Below are positions 7,871 to 63,686 of a stretch of 64,000 bases of DNA, piece by piece. Under the pieces are notes generated by a model. The model made no database searches. It was given only the letters and a program-made list of their open reading frames with translations, and was not told where the DNA came from. The translations under genes and the position numbers were made by a program. The stretch's first letter is position 1. Each line of letters begins with the position of its first letter. The stretch covers positions 102,114,001-102,178,000 of the forward strand of contig OX597819.1 of the NCBI GenBank assembly GCA_951406725.2, written 5' to 3'. Origin of the DNA: Octopus vulgaris. Lineage: Eukaryota.

Positions 7871-8068
7871 AGTTAATCCAAACATGAAAACACAAAGAGA
7901 AAACACAACAATGCGAGGACGTGGAACAAGTATAGTATTATTGGATGCTCAGGAAAGAAGGAGGATTTAACGTTTCGAGCGGAGCTCTTCGTCAGAAACA
8001 TAAGAAAAGGAAAGATTCAAAGAAGGGAAGACGGAGGAAAAAATTCGGCAACGGTACACACGCGGTCG
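7871..8068 (-). mobile_element. About 200-bp Penelope-like non-autonomous element or solo pLTR (family D) carrying a hammerhead motif
   Basis: Highly similar to 9169-9351 and 46987-47190. All three end (minus strand) in TTTGGATTAAC directly against a (TA)n tract. Confidence 0.85.
7965..7999 (-). ncRNA. Minimal type I hammerhead ribozyme motif, intact core
   Basis: Minus strand GUUU-CUGACGA-A-GAGC-UCC-GCUC-GAAA-C-GU-U-AAAU: stem I, CUGAnGA box, 4-bp stem II, GAAA box, palindromic ACGU instead of helix III, GUU cleavage triplet. Confidence 0.75.
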
Positions 8069-8482
8069 TATATATGTCTATAGTGTATAGCCTATATTAT
8101 TGTACAAGTGTGCCTTGTTAATTATAAACAAATAGCCCTTGCTACAATTTGAACTTATGTGGTTTCTAGACTTCATATATCTTTATCAGGGAACGGATGC
8201 TTATCACTACTATGAGAAATTATTAACTTATACCTTATAACTTATAGTGTAAACTCGAACATCGCTAAACTGGCCTGCCTAATTTGCATGGCAGTACAGT
8301 AACCGACAAATTAGAATAAATAAACAAACTGCTGTAGCTCTGTACGAATTTATAGAGAATATATATATTAAAAAATTAATGCGCACGTTTACATCCATCC
8401 ATCTATTCTTACATACATACATACATACATACATGCACATTGGTGCTGTTTCCAGCACCAAAGGGAAATATGCTGTGCTTAG

Positions 8483-8563
8483 CTAAGATATATCACGTGA
8501 TCACGTGACTGACCAGACTATCAGAAGTTGTCACACTGCTGGTCACTGTGCTCTAAGATATAT
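8483..8563. mobile_element. 59-bp insertion (8494-8552) flanked by an 11-bp direct repeat CTAAGATATAT
   Basis: The direct repeat lies at 8483-8493 and 8553-8563. The insert starts with CACGTGATCACGTGA. Confidence 0.65.
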
Positions 8564-8793
8564 AATTGAGTGTAAATAATAAAACAAATTTTAATGCATC
8601 TTTGATTTTTTGACATTGTATGTTCTAGCTTATGAATCAGGAGTCACCCCCTGACTCGCTTAAACACACACACAATCAGGCATACATATGTATATGTTTG
8701 TGCGTGCATCTATATCTATCTATCTATCTATCTATCTATCTATCTATCTATATATATATATATATATATATATATATATATATATATATATAT

Positions 8794-9075
8794 ATAAACC
8801 ATTTTTACGTTCAACATCACAATCAAGGAACGGCCATAATAGGCCATTCACCCACTAGAAATAACAGCCAAAAGCTTTAACCGCAAAATAACATTAATAC
8901 CGTAAGCCAGGAGAAAATTGAAAAACTTTTTACAGGGTAAAAGATTTTCAATTTTCTCCTGGCTTACGGTATTAATGTTATTTTGCGGTTAAAGCTTTTG
9001 GCTGTTATTTCTAGTGGGTGAATGGCCTATTATGGCCGTTCCTTGATAGTGATGTTGAACGTAAAAATGGTTTAT
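8794..9075. repeat. 282-bp near-perfect palindrome adjoining a (TA)n tract
   Basis: 8794-8933 is the reverse complement of 8937-9075, with about 3 differences and an AGG loop of about 3 nt. Confidence 0.97.
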
Positions 9076-9168
9076 GACTATTTAATTTTTTCCTACTAGG
9101 CCGCTGGTGGCAAAAGAATTCTACAAAATTTTTTTGCCACCCTATATTGATTATATATATATATATAT

Positions 9169-9351
9169 AGTTAATCCAAACATGAAAACACAACAACGCG
9201 AGGACAAGTATAGTATTATTGGACGCTCAGGAAAGAAGGAGGATTTAATGTTTCTAGCGGAGCTCTTCGTCAGAAACATAGGAAAAGGAAAGATCCAAAG
9301 AAGGGGAAACGGAGGAAAACAGAATCGCCAACGGAACACACGCGGTCACAT
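9169..9351 (-). mobile_element. Family D element; hammerhead motif at 9243-9277 has two substitutions
   Basis: Homologous to 7871-8068. Core reads GTTT-CTGACGA-A-GAGC-TCC-GCTA-GAAAC-AT-T-AAAT. Confidence 0.85.
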
Positions 9352-9969
9352 ATGCGTGTGAGGGCGTACACACAAATATACACAAATAAATATATATATA
9401 GACAATTCTCTCTCTCAAACACACATATTTTACCACACATGCATAAATACATACATACATACATACATACATACATACATACATACATATATATATATAT
9501 ATATATATATATATATATATATATATATATATATATATATATATATATACACACACAGATATACATATATATGCATGAATATATATTATGTATATAAACA
9601 TACACTATACGTTGGTCTGCAAATATGTTTAATTTCTGAGATGACGCCCAAGCCTAAAGTATGTATATTTTAGTTTTGTTTACTTAAACCAGGGCTTACA
9701 AGCCTCAAAACACATCTGTCCATCAGGAACTACACTCCCTCACCCCCACCTTTTTATATATATATTTCATTTATTTTTCCCATTAACTTTAACCCTTCAA
9801 ATACCTCTCTACCTCTCTTATTTTTTTCTTCTGTTTCTGTAAAACCTCTTCAGATGTCTACATTAATATTTCTCGCATATATATATTTACTTACATGGAC
9901 ATACACGCGCACACACACTTATGCCCGTTTCTGAGTGAATACACACAGACACACGCACATGCGTAAAGC

Positions 9970-60424: not shown

Positions 60425-60642
60425 AACACAACAACAACCACAACAACAATAATAATAATAATAATAATAATAATAATAATAATAATAATAATAATAATAA
60501 TAATAATAATAATAATAATAATAATAATAATTATAAGAAGAAGAGAAAGAAGAAGAAGAAGAAGAAGAAGAAGAAGAAGAAAAAGAAGGAGAAGAAGAAG
60601 AACAACAACAACAACAACAATAATAATCATGATAATAATAAT
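60425..60642. repeat. Compound microsatellite (AAC)n(AAT)n(AAG)n(AAC)n(AAT)n
   Basis: Read directly from the sequence. Confidence 0.95.
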
Positions 60643-62171
60643 GCTGTATAAAAATAATGCGAAAAAAAATTCATATATATATATATATAAAAAAAAATAT
60701 ATTAAAAAAGAACACTACATCAGGCACCACCGAAGTATTTCCTTTAGAAAAATAAATATTTGAAAAGTTTCATAGTTTAATTCTATTTAGTATGTGTTTT
60801 CTTTTATGCAAGTCTCATGATATGTTGTTGCTGTTGGTGTTGTCGGCGTTGTTACCGTCGTTGCTGATGTTGTTGTTGGTGTTGCTGTTCAGTTCCTTTA
60901 TGTTCTGCGAAATTCGACAGGAATTTTATGCAAGATATTTTTTTTCTTATTTATCTTCTCTTCTTATTGTGCATTTGTTTATGCTTTATTTCATTTTTAA
61001 TCTTTATTTTATTATCATTATTATTATTATTATTATTATTATTATTTTGTTGAGTTTTTTTTTTGTCATTTTTCACCGACGATTAAATAAATTCTATGGT
61101 GAATCCTTTTGTCTATTTAAAAAAAAATAGACAAAAAATTCTGTGTTTTTTTTTCCCTGCCAACCCCCCACCTCCTTGCGTCTCTCTACCTCAATACCAC
61201 AATTCTGATTTTCCTTTGTACTTCGGTCTGACTCTTTATTCCATTCATTGTGCTTCTCTGCTTCAATAAATGTCTGATTTTACATTCTTGTTTTGTTTAA
61301 TTCATTATTTCTATTCTATTTTATTTTCTTCATATTTTTATACTTTCGATCGTATTCTACGTCCTTCCCACCCTCTTATTCATCGATTTCTTTTTATCTG
61401 CCCTACCCTTAATCCCAGACCATTTAAAGTGAAGAATAAAAAAAAATCCAAACATCATTTAAATCTTCTATTACATTCTTTTAAATCCGTTCTCACTTTT
61501 CAGTTTTTTAACTTTGAAAATATTTACAAATTAAAGGGAATTGATTACATAATTTATGTCGCGAGAAATTATGCATAGGCAATATATATATACACATATA
61601 TACATATATATATATATATATATATATATATATATACATATACACACACGCGCATATATATATGTTTGTATATATGTATTTATATATGTACGTGCCCATG
61701 CAGATTCATGCATATATATATATATATATATATATATATATATATATACATTTTTATTTATTATGTATGTATATTTGTGTGTGTGTGTATATATGAAGAT
61801 ATATATGAATTGTATATAAATATGAACAAAACGCATGTGTTTACATATAAGCGCGCATTTGTGTGACAGTGTGAGAATATAGTCGCTTATCACACGTGTA
61901 GTACATTGAATACAGAATGTTCGATCACTTGAGACAAACAGAGAAATTAACAGGTGCAACGTTATCCCAGTAGACGAACAAAACCGAAAGCAACAGGCAA
62001 GGGAGATAATTCCGTTACGATCAGTTGACTGAAATTTTCAAACAGTATAGACAAACCAAATAAATGAGGGCCGAAGCATATAGACCGAAATGTGTCTCTC
62101 ATTAATTACATAATCTGGGGACTACCGTAAATTTTTGTGTGCATTTGTGTGTGTGTGTGAGTGTGTATATC

Positions 62172-62310
62172 TTTTATCTGTTTCAGTCTTTAAAACGCGG
62201 CCATGCTCACCTCGAATAGTTTTTGTTTAGTGGAATGAATCAAACCCAGCACTTATTTTTAAGACTGCTAATTATTCAATCGGTCTCTTTTGGCAAGCGG
62301 CTCTACATAC
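62172..62310 (-). mobile_element. SINE family B tail fragment
   Basis: TCTTTTATCTGTTTCAGTC...GCGGCCATGCT...ATCGGTCTCTTTTGGCAAGCGGCT. Confidence 0.7.
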
Positions 62311-62734
62311 AAACACTGATACACACACAAGGAATTATGTATATATATATATTAAAAGAAGTATATATACTTCTGTACGTGTGCACATATACGTTTATGT
62401 ATATATATATATATATATATATATATATATATATATATATATATATATGTATGTAGAGTGAGAGAGAGAGAGAGAGAGAGAGATTCAGATATGCATGTAT
62501 GTATATATGCTTGTATACGTATATGTCTTATAAACAAGGATCGCTGTTTAAGCTTTTACTAGACTGGCTTCAGGTTCAGACAATCTGAATATAGTCAAAA
62601 GTTTTGGATTTTTATAGTCCCTGAATGTCTTCCACCGTATCCAGTATGCAAACCATGCAACATATGCTTCGTAGAACCTATTGAGTATGTGTTTGTGTAT
62701 AGGTAAATATATGCGTCTAGCTCATATGTATATA

Positions 62735-63030
62735 GGGAAAGCACGTGGCTTAATGATTAGGATATTCGACTCCCGATCATAAGATTGTGAGTTCAATACA
62801 CTGCGACCTGTTGTGTCCCTAAGCGAAACACTTTATTTCCCATTGCCCCAGTTCATTTCGATCACAAAAATGAGCAGTACTTGTATTTCAAAGAGCCAGC
62901 CATGTCACAGTATGTCTCCCTGGTAACTACGTTCATGGTACACGTGTCTCTGGAGTCCTCAGGAACATGCACGTTGAATTCACTATCGCATCAACTGGAC
63001 CCCTCGTTGTCGTAAGCATCGGAGTGTCAA
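62735..63030 (+). mobile_element. SINE family C relative (same head and CORE-like domain, different tail)
   Basis: GTGGCTTAATGATTAG (A box), GAGTTCAATAC (B box), TTGTGTCCCTAAGCGAAACACTTTATTTCCCATTGCCCCAGTTCA. Confidence 0.8.
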
Positions 63031-63544
63031 TAAATCTTATGTATATTTGTGTACATATGTTGTATATATAAAAGACTATACAATTGTATTATACGTCGAT
63101 ATTTAACCACATATCCTCACATACACTCAAACTTAATATATATCTGTTATATAGTTTATAAATAACTATATATGATTATATGGATTTGTATGTGTATACA
63201 AGTGTACGCGCAAGGTAAAGTATGTGTACAGGTGTAAACGTATAGGCCGTATAAATTTATGTCTTTGTAGCCCCAACACGCACATACACACACATATATA
63301 TATATATAAACGTACACGTGAAAGGGGGAGGAGAAGGGAGAGAGACACAGAAAGCGTATTTCTCTTTTATTACTTCTGAAGAATAGATTTCGAAGTTTAT
63401 AATAACATTTTTCGATTTTCAAGATATTGGCATATTTTGATTATTGATCGTGAACGTCGATATGATCAATGTAATTATACTAATTTTATTTCAATTTCTC
63501 TATAACACACCTCACTTAATGTGTGTGTGTGTGAATATATATGT

Positions 63545-63686
63545 TTTTTTATTTTCTCTTCCCGTTTACTTCTGTGTTCCTTTCTGTCGAAGAGCGTAGG
63601 CTCGAAACGTAAGAAGACTTTCTCATTTCCCGAGCGTTAAACTAATATATCTGTCTGTTATTTACATACCTGTCTTCATCTCTTTT
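63545..63686 (+). mobile_element. Family D relative with hammerhead motif at 63580-63616, ending at (TA)n
   Basis: CTTT-CTGTCGA-A-GAGC-GTAG-GCTC-GAAAC-GT-A-AGAAG, followed by TTCCCGAGCG (compare TTCCTGAGCG in the other copies). Confidence 0.72.

What the first reader, a model, noticed from the sequence alone, without database searches (positions are those of the whole stretch)
7871..63686. Family of short, mostly (TA)n-embedded mini-elements carrying a minimal hammerhead ribozyme (six copies)
Seen: six dispersed non-coding elements of about 120-230 bp (cores at 7965-7999, 9243-9277, 20672-20706, 47083-47117 and 59997-60032 on minus, 63580-63616 on plus) share the layout NTTT-C(T/C)G(A/T)N(G/A)A-A-GAGC-loop-GCTC-GAAACGTH-AAAN. 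Stem II (GAGC/GCUC) is kept in four copies while its loop varies (UCC, AAU, GUAG). Stem I covaries: GUUU/AAAC at 47083 versus CUUU/AAAG at 20672. Helix III is reduced to the palindrome ACGU. Established: Penelope-like elements carry minimal type I hammerheads with a palindromic helix III that cleave as dimers, and animal non-LTR retrozymes are short hammerhead-bearing repeats. Inference: a very high-copy non-autonomous ribozyme retroelement (about one per 10 kb here) mobilised by a Penelope-like RT/GIY-YIG partner and preferring TA tracts.
Basis: partly seen in the sequence, partly recalled or inferred. Interest (0 to 1): 0.85.

Follow-up and report, generated by a model that had tools for sequence, protein, structure and literature searches.

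The report
Penelope retroelement tails with minimal hammerheads
The six motifs are real minimal hammerhead-ribozyme sequences in the leftover tail ends of several lineages of a very abundant Penelope-like jumping gene, a known arrangement, though most copies here carry lineage-wide changes in the catalytic core and may cut poorly.

Summary
All six cores are at the stated coordinates (0 matches in 40 shuffles), but they are not one mini-element. They come from three or four sister lineages, and only the copy at 7965-7999 has a complete canonical core.

Walking upstream in the genome shows that the ~200-bp unit is the 3' end (pseudo-LTR) of an autonomous Penelope-like element (PLE): RT plus C-terminal GIY-YIG, Neptune-like. 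The core lies downstream of the ORF in 18 of 20 fetched loci. One young copy has two identical 493-bp pLTRs around a 1,008-codon frame, ending on (TA)n. Short and long copies intermix on a tree. The genome holds 36,792 exact relaxed cores; 5,119 have canonical CUGANGA.

Minimal hammerheads in pLTRs, mostly as solo copies, were described in 2014, and this scan noted the same on other DNA.

Two points are less ordinary. Core changes are fixed by lineage (A6U; U4C in two separate families). Short copies have a preferred 5' end 68-93 nt upstream of the core, near initiator-like motifs, which hints at a short pLTR transcript used as template. Cleavage and transcription were not shown.

The parts
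7871..8066 (-). A-lineage solo pLTR 3' end, ~196 bp, followed by (TA)n
   Evidence: 91% identical over ~210 nt to long copy L119; 5' end 71 nt upstream of C3; fixed 3' end GGATTAACT|(TA)n among genome copies
7965..7999 (-). Minimal type I hammerhead motif, the only fully canonical one in the window; predicted cut between 7969 and 7968
9169..9350 (-). A-lineage solo pLTR 3' end; core 9243-9277 decayed (10.1-11.1 pair and palindrome broken)
20565..20735 (-). Older sister-lineage (D) copy; core 20672-20706 with G8A; no (TA)n at its 3' end; parent ORF not found
   Evidence: 345 candidates, best other copies 72-81% identical; relatives shown
46987..47190 (-). A-lineage solo pLTR 3' end with U4C core (47083-47117); falls in the U4C clade that includes the young autonomous elements
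59997..60032 (-). Decayed B-like core (A6U, stem II broken); element ends not definable
63546..63707 (+). B-lineage solo pLTR 3' end with A6U core (63580-63616), followed by (TA)n
   Evidence: 84% identical to EN-linked copy L249; B core downstream of GIY-YIG remnants in 21 of 30 loci

Best explanation
The six motifs are minimal type I hammerhead sequences lying in 5'-truncated 3' ends (solo pseudo-LTRs) of several sister lineages of a Neptune-like Penelope-like retroelement, likely inserted into TA repeats by that element's own RT and GIY-YIG endonuclease. SHOWN: the same ~200-bp sequence ends, and flanks in direct repeat, RT-GIY-YIG ORFs elsewhere in the genome; its 3' end is fixed and abuts (TA)n; 5' ends vary, with a strong peak. 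INFERRED: the endonuclease nicks (TA)n, RT primes on the RNA 3' end about 100 nt past the hammerhead, and usually stops about 200 nt in. In the parent, two hammerheads of a tandem transcript would pair through ACGU and cut after NUH. Lone genomic copies have no neighbouring partner and mostly carry core substitutions, so they are probably inert.
For: L146 has broken RT+GIY-YIG, a CA-rich 3' UTR, the CUGACGA core, then GGATTAACT(TA)n on one strand. A search with its RT gave 12,933 candidates, 129 scored, many with open frames of 880-1,008 codons. In 18 of 20 fetched loci the core lies on the same strand downstream of the ORF (L182 and L183 are two parts of one tandem array). L184: pLTR 597-1089 equals 6799-7291 (100%, 493 bp); the 1,008-codon frame has weak Pfam RVT_1 and GIY-YIG hits in that order (both under cut-off), YIDD, and a CX4CxxC linker before the EN. 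B lineage: core downstream of EN remnants in 21 of 30 loci. Long and short A copies need 20 label changes on a 121-row tree, at least 8 forced by well-supported branches. (TA)3 lies in the 140 nt just past the core in 48 of 56 copies against 20 of 56 in a control window. Other PLE families of the genome have their own hammerhead-like motifs near the 3' end with different stems and palindromes. PMC4209133 describes this anatomy and says most motifs are single and probably truncated PLEs.
Against: 5' ends are not spread as plain truncation predicts: 32 of 56 lie 68-93 nt upstream of C3, 9 of 56 reach 160 nt or more. The short/long label is more clustered than shuffles (20 against a mean of 36), partly through how I sampled. 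No parent ORF was found for the 20672 lineage (0 of 15 loci). No PLE ORF remnant lies in the window. There is no excess of 5' junctions at the predicted cut site (20 against 44 at a control site). Cleavage is untested.
Confidence: 0.85

Rival explanations
1. The ~200-bp units are self-propagating non-autonomous elements: a promoter inside the pLTR makes a short RNA from an initiator to the TA junction, short copies are themselves source genes, and the PLE protein copies them in trans (closest to the first reader's idea).
For: Peak of 5' ends at -68 to -93 (32 of 56). TA junctions at about -77 number 413, against 44 at -6 and 20 at the cut site. In the young lineage, with an unrelated upstream sequence, 5 of 30 copies start at -89 to -95, four at (T)CACC. 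The A peak lies just downstream of TCATTC (initiator consensus recalled, not from a call). D. virilis Penelope has an internal TATA-less promoter in its pLTR (PMC2377424 passages). In L189 a short A unit is fused directly to an ORF fragment of another sub-lineage.
Against: Short and long copies share haplotypes and clades, so no short-only master is required. A short RNA from the 3' pLTR of full elements would give the same peak without short copies being active. No RNA start was measured. Microhomology with TA/TG may add to the peak.
Confidence: 0.12
2. Non-LTR retrozyme: short tandem repeats with hammerheads that spread through circular RNA.
For: Short, non-coding, carries a type I hammerhead motif, and coexists with PLEs (PMC7229834 and 10.64898/2026.07.22.740005 link the two).
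Against: Not tandem (2 of 56 with a second core within 700 nt); minimal rather than canonical hammerhead; colinear with the PLE 3' end rather than permuted at the cut site; no junction excess at the cut site.
Confidence: 0.02
3. The motif is a fortuitous conserved block of a repeat, with no hammerhead ancestry.
For: No Rfam match. Covariation on the 9-row alignment is weak (score reached by 22 of 500 shuffles, one pair with a two-sided change). Only about 14% of relaxed cores are canonical.
Against: Position 7, the free one, takes all four bases while C3, G5, G8 and A9 are kept in 135-138 of 140 cores. Stem I pair 4 is G-C or G-U in lineage A (78 of 87) and C-G in B (34 of 43). Other PLE families of the genome keep the same fold with different stems and palindromes.
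Confidence: 0.01

Closest known systems
Minimal hammerheads (min-HHR) in pLTRs of metazoan Penelope-like elements (Cervera and De la Pena 2014, PMC4209133; parts 1-2 of 4 read)
   Same: Extra nucleotide between 9 and 10.1, G10.1-C11.1, palindromic 15.2-16.2 with no loop 3, short helix I; in both pLTRs of full elements; mostly single dispersed copies; several sequence families per genome.
   Different: Helix II is 4 bp here (7-8 bp in S. mansoni). Counts are higher (36,792 relaxed, 5,119 canonical, against about 2,000-9,000 reported with their descriptor). The dominant lineages carry A6U or U4C; the parts I read mention only the U3-A8 core variant.
Neptune (or Nematis) clade EN+ Penelope-like elements (features from Craig et al. 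2021, PMC8557442; passages read)
   Same: RT followed by C-terminal GIY-YIG with CxxC inside it, CX2-5CxxC linker before the EN, (TA)n targets, partial tandems forming pLTRs, inverted 5' copies, hammerhead near the 3' end.
   Different: Long CA-rich 3' UTR (about 1.1 kb in L146, 2.9 kb in L184). Clade not placed on a tree with reference elements, so Neptune versus Nematis is open.
Animal non-LTR retrozymes (PMC7229834 passages; bioRxiv 10.64898/2026.07.22.740005 part 1 of 5 and passages)
   Same: Short, non-coding, type I hammerhead, related to PLE pLTRs.
   Different: Retrozymes are defined as tandem repeats, with canonical hammerheads in the cases tested; these are dispersed monomers colinear with a PLE 3' end.

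Membership tests
EN+ Penelope-like element (parent) | ORF with RT and C-terminal GIY-YIG endonuclease | tested here: met
   L184 frame of 1,008 codons: RVT_1 (E 0.0012) then GIY-YIG (E 0.012), both under Pfam cut-off; 28% identical over 728 aa to a genome PLE protein whose GIY-YIG passes cut-off
EN+ Penelope-like element (parent) | Direct pseudo-LTRs / partial tandem arrangement containing the hammerhead | tested here: met
   493-bp identical repeats in L184; ~6.2-kb tandem array in L182-L183; variable pLTR lengths
Neptune/Nematis clade | CX2-5CxxC linker upstream of GIY-YIG and (TA)n target bias | tested here: met
   CX4CxxC at residue 876; TA at the 3' junction in 48 of 56 against 20 of 56 control
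Neptune/Nematis clade | Placement in the clade by RT phylogeny | not tested
   No named reference elements were fetched
PLE minimal hammerhead | Core CUGANGA...GAAA..UH, extra nucleotide before stem II, G10.1-C11.1, palindromic helix III, short stem I | tested here: met
   Fully met by 1 of 6 window copies (7965) and by 5,119 exact core matches in the genome; the other five deviate
PLE minimal hammerhead | Self-cleavage as a dimer | not testable with these tools
   Needs in vitro assay; no junction excess at the cut site
Non-LTR retrozyme | Head-to-tail tandem short units each with a hammerhead | tested here: not met
   2 of 56 copies have a second same-strand core within 700 nt; one 621-bp tandem pair seen (L144)
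Non-LTR retrozyme | Abundant monomeric circular RNA | not testable with these tools
   Only contigs of runs guessed to be RNA were available
Independent non-autonomous (SINE-like) family | Short-only lineages with a discrete 5' end, separate from ORF-bearing copies | tested here: inconclusive
   Discrete 5' peak present; short and long copies intermix

The most novel reading that the evidence does not exclude
The pLTR fires a discrete ~200-nt RNA from an initiator to the TA junction that the Penelope protein copies far more often than full-length RNA, also across sub-lineages, so tens of thousands of SINE-like units are a programmed by-product of an autonomous PLE. The most successful lineages spread with detuned catalytic cores (A6U; U4C twice independently), which would mean the hammerhead fold is kept as a weak or non-cleaving RNA element rather than as an efficient ribozyme.
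Probability: 0.3. Interest if true: 0.55.

Novelty: new member of a known kind. Interest (0 to 1): 0.27.

Why it matters
The kind is known, so the catch itself is ordinary. The genome is, however, a good test bed for an open question that PMC8557442 states directly: what hammerheads do in endonuclease-bearing PLEs. It holds young intact elements with a U4C core, older lineages with canonical or A6U cores, and tens of thousands of mappable 5' junctions that show no peak at the cleavage site but a strong peak at a likely transcription start.

Tried and rejected
Rfam on the whole window returned 548 matches; the 150 listed were microsatellite-driven, nearly all miRNA families, all under gathering score, with no hammerhead among them. 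Rfam on 7900-8070 returned nothing.

The best Pfam GIY-YIG hits in the genome belong to other PLE families whose ends do not match these units; the parent was found by walking upstream instead. No PLE ORF remnant lies in the window, and the stretch between the 7871 and 9169 copies is not a PLE body, so they are read as separate insertions.

RNA: no RNA holder was listed on record; 14 runs guessed to be RNA hold 77-95% of the words of a young pLTR, as contigs only; laying four showed no joints and no defined ends. This is no evidence either way.

Test for a cleavage footprint in 5' junctions: negative (20 against 44; the two patterns cover different shares of the subfamilies, so it is rough). 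The energy of a hand-built hammerhead dimer failed through an indexing error and was not used. The count of structure pairs on 9 rows was weak.

Tree labels: three ORF-linked rows (L186, L188, L191) were labelled short by my motif rule, and one unrelated-looking row (L224) was left in. Lunse et al. (PMC5785218) is not held.
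Full report
OBSERVATION. A relaxed pattern finds 6 in the window and none in 40 dinucleotide shuffles. Each parses as stem I, seven core bases, an extra A, stem II, GAAA, CG-U-H, stem I. Only 7965-7999 is canonical throughout. 47083 has U4C, 63580 and 59997 have A6U, 20672 has G8A, and 9243 has lost the 10.1-11.1 pair and the palindrome. 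Three copies (7871, 9169, 46987) are 83-85% identical over about 200 bp; the others share mostly the core with them.

COPY NUMBER. The genome (G000, 2.8 Gb) has 5,119 exact matches to the canonical core pattern and 36,792 to a pattern that frees positions 4-8; the reversed controls give 0. The two patterns differ slightly at the 5' anchor, so about 14% canonical is approximate. Of the first 30 relaxed matches, all from the start of one contig, 4 are canonical, 18 carry A6U alone and 8 carry U4C (one of these also A6U). The 30 fetched of the 40 best matches to copy 7871 nearly all end at the same base and run into (TA)n. Among 56 copies picked on the core alone, 48 have (TA)3 just past the core, against 20 in a control window.

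THE PARENT. Two of 30 core-picked copies shared sequence further upstream; a 23-letter motif from it has 317 matches. Following these gave L146: a broken RT and GIY-YIG frame, a CA-rich 3' UTR, the core, and the same 3' end on (TA)n. Its RT stretch found 12,933 candidates, 129 scored, many with open frames of 880-1,008 codons. In 18 of 20 loci fetched, the core lies on the same strand downstream of the ORF; L196 had it only upstream, and L194 had a full unit by blast but no core match. L184 has identical 493-bp direct repeats around a 1,008-codon frame and ends on (TA)n; L182-L183 are one tandem array with about a 6.2-kb period. The protein has YIDD, a CX4CxxC linker and a GIY-YIG with CxxC; Pfam hits are weak but in PLE order. 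By the features in PMC8557442 this is Neptune- or Nematis-like. The B lineage is tied to the same protein clade: its core lies downstream of EN remnants in 21 of 30 loci, and the copies seen are broken. The 20672 lineage is an older sister (best other copies 72-81% identical) with a homologous 3' end; no ORF was found in 15 loci.

SEPARATE ELEMENT OR TRUNCATION PRODUCT. Short and long A-type copies share haplotypes. On a tree of 121 rows the label needs 20 changes, at least 8 forced by well-supported branches; shuffles give 36, so there is some clustering, partly from sampling, and three long rows were mislabelled short. Short tandem arrays are rare (2 of 56 with a second core within 700 nt). 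The retrozyme definition is therefore not met, and no short-only master is needed.

Against plain truncation, the 5' ends peak sharply: 32 of 56 lie 68-93 nt upstream of C3, 15 are shorter and 9 reach 160 nt or more (a few of the shortest reflect poor references). TA junctions number 413 at about -77, 44 at -6 and 20 at the predicted cut site. The young lineage (922 exact matches) has a different upstream sequence; 12 of 30 copies run past -1,470, yet 5 of 30 start at -89 to -95, four at (T)CACC. In lineage A the peak follows TCATTC. That these resemble the initiator consensus is recalled knowledge. D. virilis Penelope has an internal promoter in its pLTR (PMC2377424, passages). A short transcript from the pLTR start to the TA junction is my preferred cause of the peak (inferred); microhomology is the rival. 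L189 has a short A unit fused without TA to an ORF fragment 98.7% identical to another sub-lineage, as a template switch would give.

IS IT A HAMMERHEAD. In 140 cores with intact stem II and GAAACGU from all held loci (not a random sample), C3, G5, G8 and A9 are kept in 135, 136, 137 and 138; position 7 takes all four bases; U4 is C in 37 and A6 is U in 40. Stem I pair 4 is G-C or G-U in 78 of 87 A cores and C-G in 34 of 43 B cores, which is one lineage-level change, not many. The formal pair count on 9 rows is weak. Another PLE family (L098, L099, L103, L110) has a 5-bp stem I, an AGUACU palindrome and CUGAAGA in two copies, CCGAAGA in two, so U4C occurs in two separate families. The 781-codon family shows a U3-A8-type motif with an ACAUGU palindrome near its 3' end (read by eye). 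PMC3088659 (section 8 and passages) reports low activity for A6C and says U4C lowers activity in vitro yet allows viroid infectivity. A search for hammerhead with A6U or U4C listed 4 papers, none about PLEs by title; Lunse et al. on PLE variants could not be read, so I do not claim these variants are unreported. There is no genomic sign that cleavage sets 5' ends. RNA data were uninformative.

MECHANISM. Shown: identity with the PLE 3' end, fixed TA junction, variable 5' end. Inferred: target-primed reverse transcription at (TA)n by the element's own protein, early stop or a short template, dimer-dependent cleavage only in tandem parent transcripts. Window copies are probably inert.

KNOWN CONTEXT. 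PMC4209133 (parts 1-2 of 4 read) describes this anatomy, its pLTR location, its mostly solo occurrence and low dimer activity. PMC6765202 (passages) reviews the same. PMC7229834 (passages) and 10.64898/2026.07.22.740005 (part 1 and passages) define retrozymes as tandem repeats. PMC3846280 (passages) mentions solo pLTRs and initiator-like motifs in ~200-bp pLTRs. The host looks like an octopod mollusc by my recall of genome size and microsatellite load (untested); a search for octopus, Penelope and hammerhead listed 4 papers, none on this by title, and PMC13282606 lists active Penelope families but has no mention of ribozyme in its main text. Supplements of these papers were not read. The scan's own notes list 21 similar findings in at least 4 genomes; I looked after forming my reading.

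VERDICT. Interest 0.27.

Noticed in passing
L189:1241-1431 (G000:C3 near 11557240): A short A-lineage unit lacking its last ~20 nt is fused without TA to a 5'-truncated ORF of another sub-lineage; likely a template switch between RNAs. L057 shows a B unit joined directly to an A unit.
   Followed up: partly
L094:744-5960 and L091-L097: A second young PLE family with a 781-codon RT-GIY-YIG frame, an overlapping upstream ORF (up to 479 codons stop to stop), 504-bp identical pLTRs, a TATA-like box and a U3-A8-type hammerhead-like motif.
   Followed up: partly
L098:5606, L103:5561 versus L099:5721, L110:5464: A third PLE family has CCGAAGA (U4C) in two copies and CUGAAGA in two, with an AGUACU palindrome; U4C thus occurs in two separate families.
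   Followed up: partly
L184 and L094 pLTRs: Both young families have a U-U mismatch at the second pair of stem I, which their older relatives lack.
   Followed up: no
L220/L221 (G000:C1:1878303-1878478): Two B cores in inverted orientation 147 bp apart around a short TA run, like the inverted 5' structures of PLE insertions.
   Followed up: no
L099:6853-6994: Three head-to-tail copies of only the last ~20-30 nt of the A-lineage 3' end, each followed by (TA)n, suggesting repeated abortive priming.
   Followed up: no
window 796-902 and 56195-56370: Long imperfect inverted repeats centred on (TA)n, scored by Rfam as miRNA-like below gathering thresholds; probably microsatellite-centred foldbacks.
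   Followed up: no
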